Shown in pieces: positions 246-12,719 of a DNA stretch of 31,484 nt. The stretch is from a virus (taxonomy: Duplodnaviria; Heunggongvirae; Uroviricota; Caudoviricetes), in IMG/VR virus record IMGVR_UViG_3300029517_000011; one strand, given 5' to 3'. The position numbers and the translations under genes are program-made. The notes under the pieces were generated by a model, which searched no databases, had not been told where the DNA came from, and worked only from the letters and a program-made list of their open reading frames with translations. Positions within the stretch are counted from its first letter, which is position 1. Each line of letters starts with the position of its first letter.

Positions 246-653
246 TTATTTTATTGATTTATTTTTACGCGCTTTAAGCATTTCTTCGAAGAGTTTGTTG
301 AAGTTTTCTACTCTTGCGCGCATTTCAGACAGCAAGGCTTCCTGCTCGGAAGATGGAAGAGCATCGAATAATTCGATCAATTCTTTGTGGTTGGGAGTTA
401 GCTCTGTTTCCACATGAAGTTCTTGTGCAGGCACTGGTGCCTTGTCTTCGTCACCAAACATTAGCCATGTAGGTGAGCACTTCAGAGCATCCGCTAAAGC
501 AAACAATCGTTTTCCGACTGGCTGGGTTTCGTCTCTTTCCCATTGTGAAATTGTGACGTGAGCAACTCCAGCGAGGCGCGCGGCTTCTCGTTGTGTTAAG
601 CGTAATTCTTTTCGTCGCGCCAGAACTCGCTGGCCCAGGGTTCTTGTATCCAT
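246..653 (-). CDS. dicA: Phage repressor, DicA-like XRE-family HTH protein (135 aa)
   Basis: 135-aa ORF with an N-terminal HTH (LRLTQREAARLAGVAHVTISQWERDETQP) and a C-terminal segment (CSPTWLMFGDEDK...NFNKLFEEMLKARK) that I recall as characteristic of E. coli Qin DicA. Divergent from a small cro-like gene, with palindromes on both flanks. Confidence 0.8.
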   Translation of the reverse strand: MDTRTLGQRVLARRKELRLTQREAARLAGVAHVTISQWERDETQPVGKRLFALADALKCSPTWLMFGDEDKAPVPAQELHVETELTPNHKELIELFDALPSSEQEALLSEMRARVENFNKLFEEMLKARKNKSIK

Positions 654-662
654 AGTTAGGTA

Positions 663-720
663 ATTCTAATTTTTCTTGACTTAGGTATCCCGCGCACAAT
701 AATGTTAGAAAAGTCTAACA
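663..720. promoter_or_regulatory. Divergent promoter/operator region between the repressor and cro-like genes
   Basis: Plus strand: TTGACT (676-681), 16-17 bp spacer, AATAAT/ATAATG (698-704), overlapped by palindrome TGTTAGA-N4-TCTAACA (703-720). Minus strand: TAGAAT -10-like hexamer (663-668) 9 nt before the repressor ATG with no SD, suggesting a near-leaderless repressor mRNA. Confidence 0.5.
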
Positions 721-734
721 AGAGGGGGGCTTTG

Positions 735-962
735 ATGCTTAAAGTTGACGCAATTACTTTTTTTGGCAGCAAAACAAAGCTTGCCAATGCCGCAGGAGTG
801 AGGCTGGCAAGTGTTGCTGCTTGGGGGATACTGGTTCCTGAAGGTCGCGCGATGCGTCTACAGGAGGCATCTGGCGGGGAGCTTCAGTATGATCCCAAAG
901 TTTATGATGAATATCGTAAGACGAAGCGGGCGGGGCGGTTGAACAATGAAAATCACTCCTGA
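735..962 (+). CDS. dicC: Cro-like small regulator, DicC-like (76 aa)
   Basis: ORF track frame 702-962; I place the start at ATG 735 because the predicted transcript start lies near 710 and AGAGGGGGG precedes 735. 76-aa product (MLKVDAITFFGSKTKLANAAGVRLASV...) matches DicC in length, position and, as far as I recall, sequence. Confidence 0.7.
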   Translation: MLKVDAITFFGSKTKLANAAGVRLASVAAWGILVPEGRAMRLQEASGGELQYDPKVYDEYRKTKRAGRLNNENHS

Positions 963-1467
963 ACAGGCTCGTGAGGCTCTGGATGCCTGGATATGTCGAC
1001 CAGGAATGACACAGGAGCAGGCGACGATATTAATCACTGAAGCATTCTGGGCTTTGAAAGAGCGCCCGAACATCGATGTTCAGCGTGTCACAGATGAAGG
1101 TGGCGCGGTTGATCAGCGAGCGCTTGGTGTTAATCGAGTGAAGATATTCGAACGCTGGAAGGCTATCGACACCAGGGATAAGCGTGAAAAGTTCACGGCG
1201 CTAGTGCCTGCGATTATGGAGGCTATCCGGATTAGTGATTTCAGGTTGTATCGTGAAATTACTGACGGAAAAAGCATCACGTGCATGATCGCCGGGTTAA
1301 ACAAAGAATATGGCGATGTGGTGGAGTCCGGACTGCTTTTTGCTGATCCTGCCGTAGTGGATCGTGAAACTGACGAACTTATAGAAAAAGCAATTGCTTT
1401 CAAGCTTGCGTATCGACAGCAATACCAACAAAAAGCTGGATGGAATTATGAGCCTTCTTTTTGCTGA
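946..1467 (+). CDS. Hypothetical early-region protein (173 aa), in the position of cII/YdaT-type regulators
   Basis: ORF track 946-1467; its start overlaps the end of the cro-like gene and its end overlaps the replication gene start. Function is inferred from position only. Confidence 0.6.
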   Translation: MKITPEQAREALDAWICRPGMTQEQATILITEAFWALKERPNIDVQRVTDEGGAVDQRALGVNRVKIFERWKAIDTRDKREKFTALVPAIMEAIRISDFRLYREITDGKSITCMIAGLNKEYGDVVESGLLFADPAVVDRETDELIEKAIAFKLAYRQQYQQKAGWNYEPSFC

Positions 1468-2413
1468 ACGCCCACTGGTTATAAACACGCAGCTGGCAAT
1501 GAAAATTGGCTTAAACGAAGCCATTGTTTTGCAACAACTGCACTACTGGTTGAGAGATACCAACTCCGGCATGGAATGTGATGGTGTTCGCTGGATTTAT
1601 AACACAACGGAACAATGGCTGGAACAGTTCCCATTCTGGTCAGAGTCAACGTTAAAGCGCGCGTTTGCAAGTCTGAAAACGCTGGGGCTTTTGCGTTGTG
1701 AAAAGCTCAATAAATCAAAGCGCGATATGACCAATTTCTACACGATCAACTATGGGAGCGAGCTTTTAGATGGTGGCAAATTGAGCGAATCCATCGGTTC
1801 AAAATGCGCCGCTCCATCAGGTCAAAATGACACGATGGAAGAGGTCAAAATGAAACGCTCCATTGGTTCAAAACGACCCAATGTCATCGGGGCAAAATGG
1901 CCTGATGATCTTACAGAGAATACAACAGAGATTACTACAGAGAATAAAAACACTTTTCGTCCGGAAGCTTCGCAACCGGACCCGCAGACGACTGAACAGG
2001 ATTCTTTAACCCGGAACTCCGACGCGGTTGTGTTTAGTGCGAAAAAACGCCAGTGGGGTAGCAGGGAGGATTTGGCGTGTGCGCAGTGGATCTGGGGGCG
2101 GATCGTGGGTCTCTACGAACAGGCAGCCAGTGATGATGGCGAGATCATGCGACCAAAAGAGCCTAACTGGACTGCCTGGGCCAATGACGTGCGCACAATG
2201 CGGATGCTGGATGGCAGAAGCCACAGACAAATTTGCGAAATGTTTGGTCGGGTTCAGCGAGATCCATTCTGGGTAAAAAACATCATGAGCCCGTCAAAGC
2301 TCCGCGAAAAATGGGACGAACTGGTCATCCGCCTGGGACGTTCACCTGTACAGCGTTGTGTTAATCATATTTCTGAACCGGATACAGAAATTCCGCCTGG
2401 TTTCAGAGGATAA
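1448..2413 (+). CDS. Phage replication initiation protein (O-like; iterons lie inside the gene)
   Basis: ORF track frame 1394-2413; I prefer ATG 1448 (MSLLFAERPLVINTQLAMKIGLNEAIVLQQLHYWL...), which gives an N-terminal HTH-like domain. Five 23-bp direct repeats sit mid-gene as in lambda O. The C-terminal half resembles primosomal/DnaT-like replication proteins from memory. Confidence 0.6.
   Translation: MSLLFAERPLVINTQLAMKIGLNEAIVLQQLHYWLRDTNSGMECDGVRWIYNTTEQWLEQFPFWSESTLKRAFASLKTLGLLRCEKLNKSKRDMTNFYTINYGSELLDGGKLSESIGSKCAAPSGQNDTMEEVKMKRSIGSKRPNVIGAKWPDDLTENTTEITTENKNTFRPEASQPDPQTTEQDSLTRNSDAVVFSAKKRQWGSREDLACAQWIWGRIVGLYEQAASDDGEIMRPKEPNWTAWANDVRTMRMLDGRSHRQICEMFGRVQRDPFWVKNIMSPSKLREKWDELVIRLGRSPVQRCVNHISEPDTEIPPGFRG
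1791..1950. repeat. Candidate origin of replication: five tandem 23-bp iterons (1791-1905) followed by an A-rich segment (1906-1950)
   Basis: Units start at 1791, 1814, 1837, 1860 and 1883, with consensus about CCATNGGTTCAAAATG. Exact 23-bp periodicity (TCAAAA at 1799, 1822, 1845, 1868, 1891). Followed by TACAGAGAATA-type A-rich repeats. Confidence 0.7.
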
Positions 2414-2453: not shown

Positions 2454-2876
2454 GTGGCAAAAGTTTTTACACAAGAAGAGCGGGAAAAAATTAAATGGCA
2501 GGTGGTGGAACTCGTGCGCCAGAGCGGCCGTGAGACGTTACGGCAACTGGAAGCTAAAACAGGTGCGACTAGATATCTGATGAGCGTTCTTGCCAGAGAG
2601 CTGGTAGCCAGTGGCGATGTATACAACTCCGGCTACGGGTTATTCCCCTCTGAACAGGCGCGTAAGGACTGGCAAAACGCCCGCAAAAAACTCTCGAGGG
2701 CAAAGGTGAAGAAACCTGCTGTGGTTGATCCGGACCTTATCTGGTCATCACCTGACGGAGAAATACGTCGCTACGACAGTCGCCTAAACATAATCTGTCG
2801 CGAGTGCCGGAAGAGCGAAGTTATGCAGCGCATACTGGCTTTCTATCAGGGTAATTTTCAGGACGTGGCGCAGTGA
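2454..2876 (+). CDS. Hypothetical protein (140 aa)
   Basis: GTG start at 2454 preceded by SD TAAGGGGGA. Stop overlaps the next gene's start (GTGA at 2873-2876), suggesting translational coupling. Confidence 0.6.
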   Translation: MAKVFTQEEREKIKWQVVELVRQSGRETLRQLEAKTGATRYLMSVLARELVASGDVYNSGYGLFPSEQARKDWQNARKKLSRAKVKKPAVVDPDLIWSSPDGEIRRYDSRLNIICRECRKSEVMQRILAFYQGNFQDVAQ

Positions 2877-3229
2877 GTGCACCGGCAACCATTCTTGATA
2901 TGTGCTGTGGCAGCCGCATGTTCTGGTTCGATAAGTCTGACAAACGGGCGATATTCAGCGATATCAGAAAAGAAGGATACACATTACGCAATGGGAGACG
3001 CTTGATTATCAGCCCTGACATTATCGCAGATTTTCGTGCATTATCATTTGCAGACGCATCTTTTTCGATGGTTGTATTAGACCCTCCGCATCTTGAGCGT
3101 GTTGGTGATAACGCCTGGATGGGAAAGAAATATGGACGGCTGAATAAAGATGCCTGGCGTGATGATTTGCGACAGAGATTTAAAGAAGCTTTTCGGGTGT
3201 TGAGGCCGCACGGCGTTCTGATTTTTTAA
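2873..3229 (+). CDS. SAM-dependent DNA methyltransferase-like protein, probably C-terminally truncated or interrupted by an in-frame TAA
   Basis: Motif I-like LDMCCGSRMF near the N-terminus and DPPH (motif IV-like of N6/N4 amino-methyltransferases) at about residue 70. ORF ends at TAA 3227-3229, but the same frame stays open for 29 more codons (WNETQIPVSQILALTDRKPVICQRTGKKR) to TAA 3317-3319. Confidence 0.5.
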   Translation: MSAPATILDMCCGSRMFWFDKSDKRAIFSDIRKEGYTLRNGRRLIISPDIIADFRALSFADASFSMVVLDPPHLERVGDNAWMGKKYGRLNKDAWRDDLRQRFKEAFRVLRPHGVLIF

Positions 3230-4560: not shown

Positions 4561-4708
4561 ATACAGCGAACTCCATTGGTTTAGTTGGATATTTACTGTG
4601 CTGGACAAAAACGGTTTGCGGGGAAATCTTAGTTAAGTAGAATGACTGCGGGTGCTTGAGGCTATCTGCCTCGGGCATGGACACCAACGGCAGATAGAGA
4701 AAAGCCCC

Positions 4709-6584
4709 AGTTAACATTACGCGTCCTGCAAGACGCTTAACATTAATCTGAGGCCAATTTCATGCTAGACACATGTAGGTTAGCCTCTTACGTGCCGAAA
4801 GGCACGGAGAAGCAGGCTATTGTTAACACCAAGCTGTAATGTCCCCTTTGAACCATTCTAAAATGTCCCCAGACAATTCTCTGGGGGATTTTTCATGACC
4901 AAAGAAACTGTTACGATGAGTCATAAGGAACTCCACCGACTTCAGATTATTCAGGAGTCAATTAATCGACATATTACTCAGGAACAAGCTGCGGCACGCA
5001 TTGGCATTTCTATTCGGCAGGTTAAACGTCTGGTGCAACGGTATAGAAATGAAGGGCCTTCTGGTCTGGTTTCCCACCGACGTGGAAAGCGTCCTAATAA
5101 TTCCTTTTCTACTGAATTCAGAGCAACAGTAATTTCACTCCTCAAAGGCCGTTACGCTGATTTTGGACCTACGTTTGCGTGCGAAAAATTGCGCGAGATA
5201 CACGGTTTATCTTTATCCGTTGAAACTCTCAGAAAGTGGATGATAGAAGAGGGGTTATGGCGTGAACGCCGTCGTAAAATTGCCCGTATATATCAACGCC
5301 GCATGCGACGACCATCTTACGGTGAACTGATCCAGATTGATGGCTCACCTCATGACTGGTTTGAAAATCGAGGCCCCAGATGTACACTGATCGTTTTCAT
5401 TGATGATGCCACCAGTGCGTTGATGGCGTTGCGTTTTGTGCCTGCTGAAACAACCCGGGCTTACATGGAAACCCTCCGGGGTTACCTTAATGATCATGGC
5501 GTACCGCTCGCTCTCTACTCTGATAGACACAGTATATTCAGGGTAAATAACCCAGAGCGGGAAGGTGAGCTGACCCAGTTCACTCGTGCGATAAAGACAC
5601 TGGGCATCGAGCCAATCCATGCCAACAGCCCGCAGGCAAAAGGGCGGGTAGAGCGCGCCAATCAGACACTACAGGACAGGCTGGTCAAAGAAATGCGGCT
5701 TCAGAATATCAGTGATATTGAAACAGCAAATGCATGGTTGCCGACCTTTATTGAAGCCTATAACAACCGGTTCGCTACGTCGCCTCGTACTACTGATAAT
5801 GCTCATCTTGATGTGCACCATTCTGAAGAGGAACTGGGTTATATCTTCAGCCTACAGGCGAAGCGCGTTCTGTCTAAAAATCTCACTTTCCAGTACAAAA
5901 GCAGTGCGTTTCAGGTACGCAGTGAGGGCCGGGGATATCGACTTAGGCATTCGGTTGTTACTGTATGCGAGAACTTTGACGGTGAAATTAACGTTCTGTA
6001 TGACGGGAAAGCGCTGGGCTGGGAAAAGTATGTTGATGGCCCGGAGCCTATACCACTGGATGATGAAAAGAGTGTCCATGAACGAGTGGATAATGCCCGT
6101 ATTGATTTACGCTCAAAATACTATGTTAAACCTAAAGCTGACCATCCCTGGCTTACGCGCCGAACGCAAAGTCATCAGCAAGTTAAGCCCCCGAAGTTAC
6201 CTAAAAAGAAGCCTGATCCCGATAAAAAAGATTGAAACCAAGATCGATTCGGTTGAGTGCATATCCATTCATAGGGTAGATTCTTAAGTCGCGTTTCTGG
6301 TGTTCATTTTCGGGTGGTTTGTTACTTGTTTTACCGGGGATATGCCAGAAACGCGCTGAGTCAGTCTGGGCGGTGCGCGTAATGAGGCGTTATGGTAAAT
6401 AGCCTATGCTAATGTCCGCTAAGAGCAAGAAGCGGAAGTTGGCAGTTTTGTGGACTGTCCCCACAAAAGTGACTACAGAAATAGTTGCAATTCATAATTG
6501 ATCATGGGTTGTCAGTTAAACTCGTGGCGATTTAAATAGACTAATTGGGAGTGCGTCCATTACTTATATCTTGTAATGTTAACT
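4709..6584 (+). mobile_element. Insertion sequence with a single rve-type DDE transposase; ends not resolved (4709 and 6584 are only a provisional 12-bp inverted match)
   Basis: Single transposase gene 4895-6235 with no second IS gene, interrupting the phage nin-like region. AGTTAACATTAC (4709-4720) is the reverse complement of 6573-6584. No convincing longer terminal inverted repeat found by eye. Confidence 0.3.
4895..6235 (+). CDS. IS transposase, HTH N-terminus plus rve integrase-core DDE domain (446 aa); IS481/ISNCY-like architecture
   Basis: ORF track 4895-6235. N-terminal HTH (ITQEQAAARIGISIRQVKRLV). Catalytic-core-like segments LIQIDGSPHDW, ALYSDRHSIF and ANSPQAKGRVERANQTL fit D, D, E spacing of retroviral-integrase-type transposases. 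SD GGGGGA sits inside a hairpin (4867-4886) before the ATG. Confidence 0.85.
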   Translation: MTKETVTMSHKELHRLQIIQESINRHITQEQAAARIGISIRQVKRLVQRYRNEGPSGLVSHRRGKRPNNSFSTEFRATVISLLKGRYADFGPTFACEKLREIHGLSLSVETLRKWMIEEGLWRERRRKIARIYQRRMRRPSYGELIQIDGSPHDWFENRGPRCTLIVFIDDATSALMALRFVPAETTRAYMETLRGYLNDHGVPLALYSDRHSIFRVNNPEREGELTQFTRAIKTLGIEPIHANSPQAKGRVERANQTLQDRLVKEMRLQNISDIETANAWLPTFIEAYNNRFATSPRTTDNAHLDVHHSEEELGYIFSLQAKRVLSKNLTFQYKSSAFQVRSEGRGYRLRHSVVTVCENFDGEINVLYDGKALGWEKYVDGPEPIPLDDEKSVHERVDNARIDLRSKYYVKPKADHPWLTRRTQSHQQVKPPKLPKKKPDPDKKD

Positions 6585-7536: not shown

Positions 7537-7776
7537 ATGGGTAGCATTAACCTGCGTATTGACGATGAACTTAAAGCGCGTTCTTACGCCGCGCTTGAAA
7601 AAATGGGTGTAACTCCTTCTGAAGCGCTTCGTCTCATGCTCGAGTATATCGCTGACAATGAACGCTTGCCGTTCAAACAGACACTCCTGAGTGATGAAGA
7701 TGCTGAACTTGTGGAGATAGTGAAAGAACGGCTTCGTAATCCTAAGCCAGTACGTGTGACGCTGGATGAACTCTGA
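7537..7776 (+). CDS. relB: RelB antitoxin (79 aa)
   Basis: ORF track 7537-7776. MGSINLRIDDELKARSYA...KPVRVTLDEL matches E. coli RelB as I recall it. Stop overlaps the relE start (TGATG). Confidence 0.9.
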   Translation: MGSINLRIDDELKARSYAALEKMGVTPSEALRLMLEYIADNERLPFKQTLLSDEDAELVEIVKERLRNPKPVRVTLDEL

Positions 7777-8063
7777 TGGCGTATTTTCTGGATTTTGACG
7801 AGCGGGCACTAAAGGAATGGCGAAAGCTGGGCTCGACGGTACGTGAACAGTTGAAAAAGAAGCTGGTTGAAGTACTTGAGTCACCCCGGATTGAAGCAAA
7901 CAAGCTCCGTGGTATGCCTGATTGTTACAAGATTAAGCTCCGGTCTTCAGGCTATCGCCTTGTATACCAGGTTATAGACGAGAAAGTTGTCGTTTTCGTG
8001 ATTTCTGTTGGGAAAAGAGAACGCTCGGAAGTATATAGCGAGGCGGTCAAACGCATTCTCTGA
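7776..8063 (+). CDS. relE: RelE mRNA-interferase toxin (95 aa)
   Basis: ORF track 7776-8063. MAYFLDFDERALKEWRKLG...; RelE/ParE-family size and position immediately after relB. Confidence 0.9.
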   Translation: MAYFLDFDERALKEWRKLGSTVREQLKKKLVEVLESPRIEANKLRGMPDCYKIKLRSSGYRLVYQVIDEKVVVFVISVGKRERSEVYSEAVKRIL

Positions 8064-12409: not shown

Positions 12410-12485
12410 GGCCCTTTAGCTCAGTGGTGAGAGCGAGCGACTCATAATCGCCAGGTCGCTGGTTCAAATCCAGCAAGGGCCACCA
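12410..12485 (+). tRNA. tRNA with anticodon CAU, ileX/ileZ-like (tRNA-Ile2 lysidine type, or Met)
   Basis: Hand-folded cloverleaf: acceptor GGCCCTT/AAGGGCC, D-stem GCTC/GAGC, anticodon loop CUCAUAA, T-loop TTCAAAT, encoded CCA. Close to E. coli ileX as I recall it. Confidence 0.8.
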
Positions 12486-12486
12486 A

Positions 12487-12563
12487 CCGCCACTAGCTCA
12501 TCAGGAAAGAGCGTCAACCCTTTAAGTTGAGTGTGCGAGGTTCGAGTCCCCGGTGGCGGTCCA
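12487..12563 (+). tRNA. Atypical tRNA: anticodon loop CCUUUAA (formal anticodon UUU, Lys-like) with C instead of U at position 33; C1-G72 acceptor pair
   Basis: Folds as a cloverleaf (acceptor CCGCCAC/GTGGCGG, D-stem GCTC/GAGC with GG in the loop, anticodon stem TCAAC/GTTGA, T-arm GGTTCGAGTCC, encoded CCA) but has a noncanonical position 33 and an A-C mismatch in the T-stem. Confidence 0.55.
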
Positions 12564-12565
12564 GT

Positions 12566-12641
<76 letters not shown>

Positions 12642-12644
12642 TAT

Positions 12645-12719
<75 letters not shown>

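What the first reader, a model, noticed from the sequence alone, without database searches (positions are those of the whole stretch)
1791..1950. Replication origin embedded in the initiator gene: five exactly 23-bp-spaced iterons plus an A-rich segment
Five direct repeats (consensus about CCATNGGTTCAAAATG) occur at a strict 23-bp period in the middle of the O-like gene, followed by A-rich TACAGAGAATA-type repeats. This is the lambda-type ori-within-O organisation. The repeats are read in frame, producing a repetitive IGSK-type peptide linker between the N- and C-terminal domains. No separate helicase-loader (P/DnaC-like) gene follows, so the C-terminal domain may recruit host primosome factors directly.
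Basis: partly seen in the sequence, partly recalled or inferred. Interest (0 to 1): 0.55.

Follow-up and report, generated by a model that had tools for sequence, protein, structure and literature searches.

The report
Phage origin inside loader-less initiator gene
A phage replication-initiator gene carries its own replication origin in its middle, much as phage lambda does, but it belongs to a very large uncharacterised initiator family and ends in a copy of the tail of the host restart protein DnaT, which may explain how such phages replicate without a helicase-loader gene.

Summary
The repeats are real and far beyond chance. Six copies (five clear, one weak) of a 23-bp unit lie at 1767-1905, spaced 23,23,23,23,24 rather than strictly 23. 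Three 12-mers ACAGAGAnTACw follow at 1913-1948. The units fall in all three reading frames, so the repeat is a DNA feature, not a peptide feature.

Relatives of the N-terminal winged-helix domain exist from E. coli to Firmicutes (16,367 clusters, no Pfam model). Of 72 loci, 53 carry the same array at the same place.
- Each unit has a palindromic core, NNNCA-www-TGNNN.
- One amino acid of the predicted recognition helix tracks one base of the half-site: S-T, D-G, K-A, N-C.
- The 12-mer is held at the DNA level (Thr=ACA 95/98, Glu=GAG 95/98).

The C-terminal domain is homologous to lambda O's. The last 21 residues copy the tail of host DnaT. Initiators with this tail never have a P, DnaC or DnaB gene next to them (38/38, plus phages LLS and SfIV and locus L191). 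A near-isogenic E. coli relative with a lambda-like tail does have a P gene.

Verdict: a lambda-type origin inside the initiator gene, and a new variant of a known kind. Origin firing and the tail's partner are inferred, not shown.

The parts
676..703 (+). pR-like sigma-70 promoter (TTGACT-16-AATAAT). It would drive cro, the cII-like gene and the initiator gene, so transcription runs through the origin.
   Evidence: 10 of 12 consensus match. Gene order.
1448..2413 (+). Initiator gene (321 aa), called O-like. PHROG 391 'replication initiation O-like'. No Pfam hit. PGAP names it 'hypothetical protein'.
   Evidence: (phrog_391 E 1e-90)
1448..1762 (+). N-terminal winged-helix DNA-binding domain (aa 1-105). 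Predicted recognition helix aa 66-79, with Ser67-Thr68.
   Evidence: AF2 model pLDDT 84. Foldseek best matches are winged-helix initiator and regulator domains 4pql, 5kbj, 4pt7. Weak Pfam hits to PadR, HTH_36, DnaD_N. 16,367 clusters of relatives.
1767..1789 (+). Iteron R0 (weak copy), core TGGCAAATTGAGC at 1774-1786
   Evidence: (D1)
1790..1812 (+). Iteron R1, core GTTCAAAATGCGC at 1797-1809
1813..1835 (+). Iteron R2, core GGTCAAAATGACA at 1820-1832 (4 of 5 arm positions complementary). With its flanks TCCATC and GATGGA it forms a 27-bp near-palindrome at 1813-1839.
   Evidence: (I1, I2)
1836..1858 (+). Iteron R3, core GGTCAAAATGAAA at 1843-1855
1859..1881 (+). Iteron R4, core GTTCAAAACGACC at 1866-1878
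1883..1905 (+). Iteron R5 (24 bp after R4), core GGGCAAAATGGCC at 1890-1902 (4 of 5 arm positions complementary)
1913..1948 (+). Three tandem 12-mers ACAGAGAATACA / ACAGAGATTACT / ACAGAGAATAAA. Family-wide motif ACAGAGAnTACw. Proposed DNA-unwinding element.
1763..2014 (+). Segment that encodes the inter-domain linker (aa 106-189). The model predicts it to be disordered. It holds the origin DNA.
   Evidence: pLDDT below 30 for aa 109-202
2015..2335 (+). C-terminal helical domain (aa 190-296), homologous to the C-terminal domain of lambda O
   Evidence: (34% identity, E 8e-26)
2348..2410 (+). DnaT-type C-terminal tail VQRCVNHISEPDTEIPPGFRG (aa 301-321)
   Evidence: (tail profile against PDB hits only DnaT, E 1.7e-9). 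DNA homology to the P-containing relative L167 ends at 2338.
2454..2876 (+). Next gene: DUF977 / LygF / 'Ren-like' small protein. It is not a helicase or a loader.

Best explanation
The segment 1767-1948 is the replication origin of a lambdoid (Qin/mEp460-like) E. coli phage. It lies inside the gene of its own initiator.

Proposed mechanism:
1. The N-terminal winged-helix domain binds as dimers to six 23-bp-phased iterons. Each iteron is centred on a 13-bp palindrome of the type GGTCA-AAA-TGACC.
2. The resulting nucleoprotein complex melts the adjoining A-rich block of three 12-mers (ACAGAGAnTACw). Transcription from the upstream pR-like promoter probably helps.
3. The lambda-O-like C-terminal domain and its DnaT-like tail then bring in the host helicase machinery directly, because the phage has no P, DnaC or DnaB gene.

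Shown by computation:
- the repeats and their statistical significance;
- their DNA-level (not peptide-level) nature;
- their conservation and co-variation with the initiator;
- the domain homologies;
- the association of the tail with absence of a loader gene.

Inferred:
- origin firing;
- melting at the 12-mers;
- what the tail binds (DnaB-DnaC, or PriA/PriB). I put this last step at about 0.5.
For: Repeat statistics.

The units occupy all three codon phases.

In 53 of 72 relatives from many bacterial orders, the strongest periodicity in the gene is 22-24 bp or its double, and it starts at aa 85-145. About 15% would be expected if lags were equally likely.

The iteron core is a 5-3-5 palindrome whose two arms change together between clades: GGTCA/TGACC, GGACA/TGTCC, GTGCA/TGCAC, GATCA/TGATC, GCTCA/TGAGC, ACCCA/TGGGT.

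The residue before the invariant Thr68 predicts the third base of the half-site: S-T in 19 of 20 loci, D-G in 21 of 22, K-A in 6 of 6, N-C in 3 of 3.

The N-domain model is a winged helix (pLDDT 84). Its best PDB matches include plasmid iteron-binding initiators.

The 12-mer is constrained as DNA. In 98 T-E-x-T tetrads from 42 loci, Thr is ACA in 95 (background 24%) and Glu is GAG in 95 (background 47%). The third codon is A-N-T with any middle base, giving Asn, Ile, Thr or Ser.

The 12-mer block lies in the most AT-rich 50-mer of the gene.

The layout matches lambda: first iteron at codon 116 there, homologous C-terminal domain, AT-rich block on the same side.

Natural deletion variants of 290 aa lack exactly 93 bp, from R1 to R5.

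Phage isolates mEp460_ev081 and HannyBb carry the same gene.

Tail and loader evidence.
Against: - There is no experimental origin mapping for this family in the papers I could search.
- In this window the right arms of the palindromes are degenerate: only 2 of 6 cores reach 4 of 5 complementary arm positions.
- The A-rich block is only 70% AT, less extreme than in lambda.
- The window's element carries an IS insertion and a truncated methylase gene, so this copy may be a defective prophage.
- The loci compared are not phylogenetically independent, so the co-variation counts overstate the number of independent events.
- The DnaT tail is described in the literature only as flexible, with no known partner. 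It could serve self-association rather than recruitment.
- DopC, an O-like protein that carries a domain found in the C-terminus of DnaT, sits next to a P-like gene.
Confidence: 0.8

Rival explanations
1. The repeats are initiator-binding sites that serve autoregulation, copy control or incompatibility (titration or handcuffing). Initiation itself occurs elsewhere in the genome.
For: Iterons in plasmids often have both roles (established knowledge of iteron plasmids). Nothing computed here shows strand opening. The co-variation proves binding specificity, not initiation.
Against: The array always sits next to the conserved A-rich 12-mer block and at the same place as the mapped lambda origin. 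N-domain plus array plus 12-mers move as one unit when domains are shuffled. No other repeat cluster of similar strength exists in the 31-kb window.
Confidence: 0.07
2. The repeat is only a by-product of a repetitive, low-complexity protein linker and has no function as DNA.
For: The segment encodes a linker that is predicted to be disordered. SIGSK occurs twice and TE-x-T three times in the peptide.
Against: A 23-bp period puts the copies in three different frames. Synonymous positions of the 12-mer are fixed while the encoded residue varies among Asn, Ile, Thr and Ser. Both palindrome arms change together, and they change with a residue of the DNA-binding domain.
Confidence: 0.02
3. The origin reading is right, but the DnaT-like tail is a self-association element (DnaT needs its C-terminal part to form trimers), not a recruitment peptide. 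Loader-less phages would obtain DnaB by another route. Candidates are direct DnaB-DnaC contact by the C-terminal domain as with DnaA, PriA-dependent assembly on an R-loop or D-loop at the melted 12-mers, or recombination-dependent replication.
For: DnaT 1-161 forms dimers and full-length DnaT forms trimers, which points to a C-terminal contribution (review PMC5778457). The 2026 preprimosome paper favours the DnaT N-terminal domain for DnaB/DnaC recruitment. Growth of the O-only phage LLS is aided by RecBCD (PMC12315714).
Against: The tail is found on at least two N-domain families and at least three C-terminal domain types, and always without a loader gene. Relatives with the same domains but a W-x-x-x-L tail have a lambda-P gene. 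That pattern is what a partner-specifying docking peptide would give. An oligomerisation element would not be expected to track loader loss.
Confidence: 0.3
4. This particular copy is a decayed prophage remnant whose origin no longer works.
For: An IS transposase lies at 4895-6235 and a truncated methyltransferase gene at 2873-3229. The gene is found mostly in chromosomes.
Against: The initiator reading frame, all six iterons and the 12-mers are intact. They are 96-99% identical to those of phage records mEp460_ev081, HannyBb and PhiR42_1. The window also keeps lysis, terminase, head and tail genes.
Confidence: 0.15

Closest known systems
Phage lambda O protein and ori-lambda
   Same: The origin lies inside the initiator gene, between the N- and C-terminal domains. 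The first iteron is at codon ~115. The iterons have dyad symmetry and are spaced 20-24 bp. An A-rich block lies on the promoter-distal side. Rightward transcription passes through. The C-terminal domain is homologous (34% identity, E 8e-26).
   Different: The N-terminal domain is not Pfam Phage_rep_O and shows no detectable similarity to lambda O. There are six iterons with a 13-bp core instead of four 18-19-bp ones. The unwinding block is a conserved 12-mer repeat. There is no P gene. The tail is DnaT-like instead of lambda's ...TNTDWIYGVDL.
'O-only' lambdoid replication modules (phage LLS; 34 of 314 Enterobacterales lambdoid phages; Genome Res 2025, PMC12315714)
   Same: A single O-like gene with no helicase or loader. 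LLS O ends ...KIPEGFRG, the same DnaT-type tail. Shigella phage SfIV gp41 also has it.
   Different: LLS and SfIV have a different N-domain (the same type as L191, which PGAP labels 'helix-turn-helix domain-containing protein'), about 15-bp repeats and no ACAGAGA 12-mers. The paper states that replication of this type is 'not yet understood' and never mentions DnaT or PriA.
E. coli DnaT (primosomal protein I)
   Same: The last 19-21 residues match: RDVNTVSEPDSQIPPGFRG against RCVNHISEPDTEIPPGFRG.
   Different: There is no similarity to the DnaT N-terminal domain, acidic linker or three-helix bundle (NCBIfam score 16 against a cut-off of 201). DnaT does not bind an origin.
RepA_N-type plasmid initiators of Gram-positive bacteria (PDB 4pql, 4pt7) and Rep-DNA complex 5kbj
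   Same: These are the best structural matches of the N-domain model (TM 0.5-0.6). From my own knowledge, they are winged-helix dimers that bind iterons, and the RepA_N origin also lies inside the rep gene.
   Different: Sequence identity is 15-21% and the Foldseek E-values are only 4.5e-3 to 0.1. The C-terminal domains are unrelated.
DopC/DopE (domesticated lambda O/P; PMC5509034)
   Same: An O-like N-terminal DNA-binding domain joined to a domain found in the C-terminus of DnaT.
   Different: DopC lies next to a P-like gene, has no iterons and is chromosomal. The window's gene is a phage gene with iterons and no P gene.
Gram-positive phage 'DnaD-like' or replisome-organiser initiators with Phg_2220_C (PF09524)
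   Same: Many share this same N-domain, with 22-24-bp arrays behind it (loci L126, L131, L135, L143, L149).
   Different: They have other C-terminal domains and tails, and usually a DnaC/DnaI-like or DnaB-like gene next door.

Membership tests
Lambda O family (Pfam PF04492 Phage_rep_O) | N-terminal domain matches Phage_rep_O | tested here: not met
   No Pfam hit for the 321-aa protein at E<=0.01. Lambda O itself scores E 5.7e-36. hhalign of the N-domain profile against lambda O finds nothing in the N-terminal part.
Lambda O family | C-terminal domain homologous to that of lambda O | tested here: met
   BLASTP 34% identity over 148 aa, E 8e-26
Lambda-type origin (origin within the initiator gene) | Array of at least 4 direct repeats in the segment that encodes the inter-domain linker | tested here: met
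   Lambda coordinates for comparison.
Lambda-type origin | Each iteron has internal dyad symmetry (site for a dimer) | tested here: inconclusive
   In the window only R2 and R5 reach 4 of 5 complementary arm positions. The symmetry is clear across the family, with perfect 5-3-5 palindromes in L097, L100, L087, L104, L123.
Lambda-type origin | A+T-rich unwinding block directly beside the iterons | tested here: met
   1906-1955 is 70% AT, the maximum for the gene.
Lambda-type origin | Partner loader gene (P) directly downstream | tested here: not met
   The next gene is DUF977. No P, DnaC or DnaB homologue in the window.
Lambda-type origin | Fragment supports initiator-dependent replication; initiator binds the iterons | not testable with these tools
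   Needs an origin-plasmid assay and a gel-shift or footprint. The co-variation is indirect support for binding.
DnaT (NCBIfam NF002770) | Full-length match: N-terminal domain, acidic linker, three-helix bundle | tested here: not met
   16.3 bits against a cut-off of 201, and only residues 302-321 match. hhalign aligns only the last ~30 residues.
DnaT | C-terminal tail RDvxxixxpDsxIPpGFRG | tested here: met
   (E 1.7e-9; DnaT is the only significant PDB hit)
PHROG 391 'replication initiation O-like' | Profile match over the whole protein | tested here: met
   E 1.1e-90, residues 17-321
RepA_N / DnaD-N type winged-helix initiator fold | Structural similarity of the N-domain | tested here: inconclusive
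   Foldseek top hit 4pql_B: E 4.5e-3, TM 0.60, 17% identity. Many generic winged-helix regulators score similarly.
O-only lambdoid replication module (PMC12315714) | O homologue present; no helicase or loader in the module | tested here: met

The most novel reading that the evidence does not exclude
The DnaT-type tail may be a portable docking peptide. It would let any origin-binding protein plug straight into the host helicase-loading machinery (DnaB-DnaC, or PriA/PriB). That would explain how the 'O-only' lambdoid phages replicate. It would also assign a function to the conserved but unexplained flexible tail of DnaT itself.

Separately, the phylum-spanning 12-mer ACAGAGAnTACw may be a sequence-specific unwinding or priming element read by this initiator family, and not merely A+T-rich DNA.
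Probability: 0.35. Interest if true: 0.8.

Novelty: new variant of a known kind. Interest (0 to 1): 0.62.

Why it matters
The gene is present in about a third of complete E. coli genomes (1849 of 5426) and is labelled 'hypothetical protein' there. Its N-domain family has more than 16,000 sequence clusters and no Pfam model. A defined origin layout (23-bp-phased palindromic iterons, a one-residue/one-base specificity rule, a universal 12-mer) therefore allows origin prediction in very many phages and prophages.

A 2025 paper states that lambdoid phages with only an O gene replicate in a way that is 'not yet understood'. The link between the tail and loader absence gives a concrete, cheap test. 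The same test bears on an open question in replication restart: how DnaT hands over to DnaB-DnaC.

Tried and rejected
- Pfam, NCBIfam and PDB sequence searches of the whole protein gave nothing except the DnaT tail.
- The full-length AF2 model was poor (pLDDT 52) and was not used for fold search. A deeper N-domain alignment gave a usable model.
- The first viral-contig scan returned only 98-100% identical loci, useless for co-variation. The genome-contig scan gave the needed diversity.
- Literature searches for the 12-mer or its peptide (ACAGAGAATACA, TENTTE) found nothing relevant. A search for 'initiator-solo' found no paper.
A tail alignment could not seed a locus search. So there is no unbiased census of the tail.
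- Rac prophage YdaU was checked as a possible relative. It is a DUF1376 protein and therefore a different family.
- DUF977/LygF was considered as a hidden loader and rejected. It also follows P in L167 and ydaV in Rac, and it is absent from LLS.
- The idea that the C-terminal domain as a whole resembles DnaT was rejected. Only the last ~30 residues align.

Full report
**Context.** The window is a lambdoid E. coli phage or prophage of the Qin/mEp460 type, 97.7% identical over its first 4.5 kb to phage PhiR42_1.
- Gene order is: cI-like repressor (246-653, minus strand), Cro (702-962), cII/YdaT-like gene (946-1467), a 321-aa 'O-like' gene (1448-2413), then DUF977/LygF (2454-2876) and a truncated methylase gene.
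- The 321-aa protein matches PHROG 391 'replication initiation O-like' (E 1e-90) but no Pfam family.
- It occurs at 80% coverage or more in 1849 of 5426 complete E. coli genomes, where PGAP calls it 'hypothetical protein'.

**Observation.**
- Tandem Repeats Finder reports a 23-bp array (1790-1863) and a 12-bp array (1913-1946).
- In register there are five clear units with cores CAAAATG/CAAAACG at 1800, 1823, 1846, 1869 and 1893. The spacing is therefore 23,23,23,24.
- A sixth, weaker unit lies 23 bp upstream, with core CAAATTG at 1777.
- Lag-23 self-match reaches 0.641, the maximum for the whole window. The simulated maximum averaged 0.477 ± 0.015, and none of 300 simulations reached the observed value.
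- The units fall in codon phases 1,0,2,1,1. The 'IGSK' peptide repeat is therefore an incidental reading of two or three units. The thing that is conserved is the DNA.

**The array belongs to a family.** The N-terminal ~105 residues have relatives in Enterobacterales, Pantoea, Xenorhabdus, Photobacterium, Pseudomonas, Comamonas, Acinetobacter, Moraxella, and in Firmicute and Chloroflexi genomes.
- A profile search finds 16,367 clusters at 50% identity.
- In 53 of 72 loci the strongest periodicity inside the gene is 22-24 bp or its double, and it starts at aa 85-145. About 15% would be expected if lags were equally likely.
- The sequence of the units differs between clades, but every unit contains a 13-bp palindrome NNNCA-www-TGNNN whose two arms change together: GGTCA/TGACC, GGACA/TGTCC, GTGCA/TGCAC, GATCA/TGATC, GCTCA/TGAGC, ACCCA/TGGGT.
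- The residue before the invariant Thr68, at the start of helix 66-79, predicts the third base of the half-site: Ser-T in 19 of 20 loci, Asp-G in 21 of 22, Lys-A in 6 of 6, Asn-C in 3 of 3.
- These loci share ancestry, so the counts are not independent events. Even so, Lys-A and Asn-C recur in both Proteobacteria and Firmicutes.
- The N-domain model (pLDDT 84) is a winged helix. Its best PDB matches include plasmid iteron-binding initiators (4pql, 5kbj, 4pt7) at modest scores.
- Together this is strong indirect evidence that dimers of the N-domain bind the iterons.

**The 12-mers.** Directly 3' of the array, most relatives carry one to four copies of ACAGAGAnTACw. Most Proteobacterial loci carry two to four, and the motif survives into several Firmicute loci although the iterons differ.
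- In 98 T-E-x-T tetrads from 42 loci, Thr is ACA 95 times (background 24%) and Glu is GAG 95 times (background 47%).
- The third codon is A-N-T with any middle base, so the residue is Asn, Ile, Thr or Ser.
- Fixed synonymous sites with a free amino acid mean that selection acts on the nucleotides.
- The block lies in the most AT-rich 50-mer of the gene (70% AT, 48% A on the top strand).
- Copy number varies by exactly 12 bp between close relatives: L085 has four copies.
- Initiators with another N-domain but the same C-terminal half (L191, phage LLS) lack the 12-mers. The motif therefore goes with the N-domain and its iterons.

**Comparison with lambda.**
- Lambda's four iterons start at codon 116 of O with spacing 20,24,23, followed by the A-rich block. 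The layout here is the same.
- Residues 147-294 align with lambda O 135-270 (34% identity, E 8e-26). The TENTTEITTEN stretch falls opposite lambda's A-rich region.
- The N-domain is not Phage_rep_O.
- As in the classical lambdoid phages, the origin is a shuffling junction. Other E. coli genes match only nt 500-966 of this gene, that is, everything after the 12-mers.
- A 290-aa natural variant lacks exactly 93 bp, from R1 to R5. From my own knowledge, this resembles the in-frame ori-minus deletions of lambda.

**No loader, and a DnaT tail.**
- No P, DnaC or DnaB homologue exists in the window, in the complete PhiR42_1 genome as annotated, or around the initiator gene up to Q in the phage records mEp460_ev081 and HannyBb.
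- The last 21 residues (VQRCVNHISEPDTEIPPGFRG) match the C-terminus of E. coli DnaT (RDVNTVSEPDSQIPPGFRG).
- A profile of such tails from 12 initiators hits only DnaT in the PDB (E 1.7e-9). Nothing else in DnaT aligns.
- Among dereplicated relatives, 38 of 38 with this tail have no P, DnaC or DnaB gene within 1.2 kb downstream. Their neighbours are DUF977-like, ParB-like, methylase and queuine-transferase-like genes.
- All three relatives with a W-x-x-x-L tail, and Photobacterium L120, have a lambda-P homologue as the next gene. Many others have DnaC and/or DnaB.
- E. coli P0036/L167 is the clearest case. It has the same immunity region, N-domain, iterons and C-terminal domain (80.6% DNA identity across window 832-2338). 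It ends DGWEDVL and has a Phage_lambda_P gene between the initiator gene and DUF977. The homology breaks at 2338, exactly where the tail begins.
- The tail also sits on Phg_2220_C-type and a third type of C-terminal domain. It sits on a different N-domain in L191, SfIV gp41 and phage LLS, all without a loader gene.

**Literature.**
[quoted passage not shown] It does not mention DnaT or PriA (PMC12315714).
- Reviews describe the DnaT tail only as a highly flexible 20-residue tail (PMC5778457).
- The 2026 preprimosome structure paper says that how DnaB/DnaC is recruited 'remains unknown' (PMC13377028).
- An O-like protein fused to a domain found in the C-terminus of DnaT (DopC) has been described, but it sits next to a P-like gene and has no iterons (PMC5509034).

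**Mechanism proposed.**
1. Transcription from the pR-like promoter (676-703) produces the initiator.
2. Dimers of the winged-helix domain fill the six phased iterons.
3. The complex, helped by transcription through the site, opens the 12-mer block.
4. The C-terminal domain and its tail recruit host DnaB-DnaC directly, or build a PriA/PriB-type preprimosome in which the initiator stands in for DnaT.

Binding specificity is supported by co-variation. Opening and recruitment are inferred.

**Rivals.**
- A pure peptide repeat is excluded by the frame and codon data.
- A control-only role for the iterons is not excluded, but it is unlikely given the fixed association with the 12-mers and the lambda-like placement.
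- The tail may act in self-association instead of recruitment.
- This copy may sit in a defective prophage, given the IS at 4895-6235.

**Novelty.** The kind of feature (origin within the initiator gene) is textbook. What I did not find described in the papers I could search:
- the initiator family;
- the strict 23-bp architecture with a palindromic core and a simple recognition rule;
- the conserved 12-mer;
- the link between the DnaT-type tail and loader-less modules.

Noticed in passing
window 2348-2410; loci L086, L093, L120, L149, L167: C-terminal tails of these initiators look like partner-specifying peptides. W-x-x-x-L tails (as in lambda O ...DWIYGVDL) go with a lambda-P gene. A Lactobacillus relative ends DDLPF, like the tip of SSB, and has a DnaC/DnaI-like neighbour.
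   Followed up: partly
window 1813-1839; 37 of 72 relatives: Many arrays have a 46-bp super-period (best lag 45-48). In the window the spacers alternate between TCCATC and its complement GATGGA, which makes R2 a 27-bp near-palindrome.
   Followed up: partly
P0016-P0021 (290-aa variants); L085:4300-4560: Natural variants exist. One is an in-frame 93-bp deletion that removes R1-R4 and leaves a single clear iteron. Another (L085) has a fourth 12-mer (+12 bp).
   Followed up: partly
window 1448-1467: The initiator start codon overlaps the end of the cII/YdaT-like gene by 20 nt. Some database entries (448 aa, P0001) fuse the two reading frames.
   Followed up: no
window 4650-4821: sok antitoxin RNA (Rfam RF01794, 104 bits), so a hok/sok-type module lies just before the IS.
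   Followed up: no
window 4895-6235: IS transposase (HTH plus rve_3 domains) inserted in the early-right region. The methyltransferase gene at 2873-3229 is truncated (it matches only part of the full-length profiles).
   Followed up: no
window 12410-12719: Four tRNA genes in a row: Met(cat), Lys(ttt), Thr(tgt), Gly(tcc). tRNA-Thr(tgt) reads ACA, the Thr codon that is fixed in the 12-mers.
   Followed up: no
window 7776-8063 and 7537-7776: ParE/RelE-type toxin gene, with a small upstream reading frame that may encode the antitoxin, in the nin-like region.
   Followed up: no
one search hits P0241-P0271; L161: Some relatives (400-880 aa) carry two tandem copies of the N-domain in one protein.
   Followed up: no
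L191:2330-2430; L192:34500-34600: Initiators with a different (HTH_36-like) N-domain but the same C-terminal half have their own repeats at the same place (TTGACCCNTCAA-type, about 15-bp period). They have no ACAGAGA 12-mers.
   Followed up: partly
Literature: PMC5322425: Gifsy-2 of Salmonella D23580 has a 71-bp deletion in the middle of its O gene. 71 equals 23+24+24, which would fit a slip between iterons if that O gene is of this family. I did not check this.
   Followed up: no
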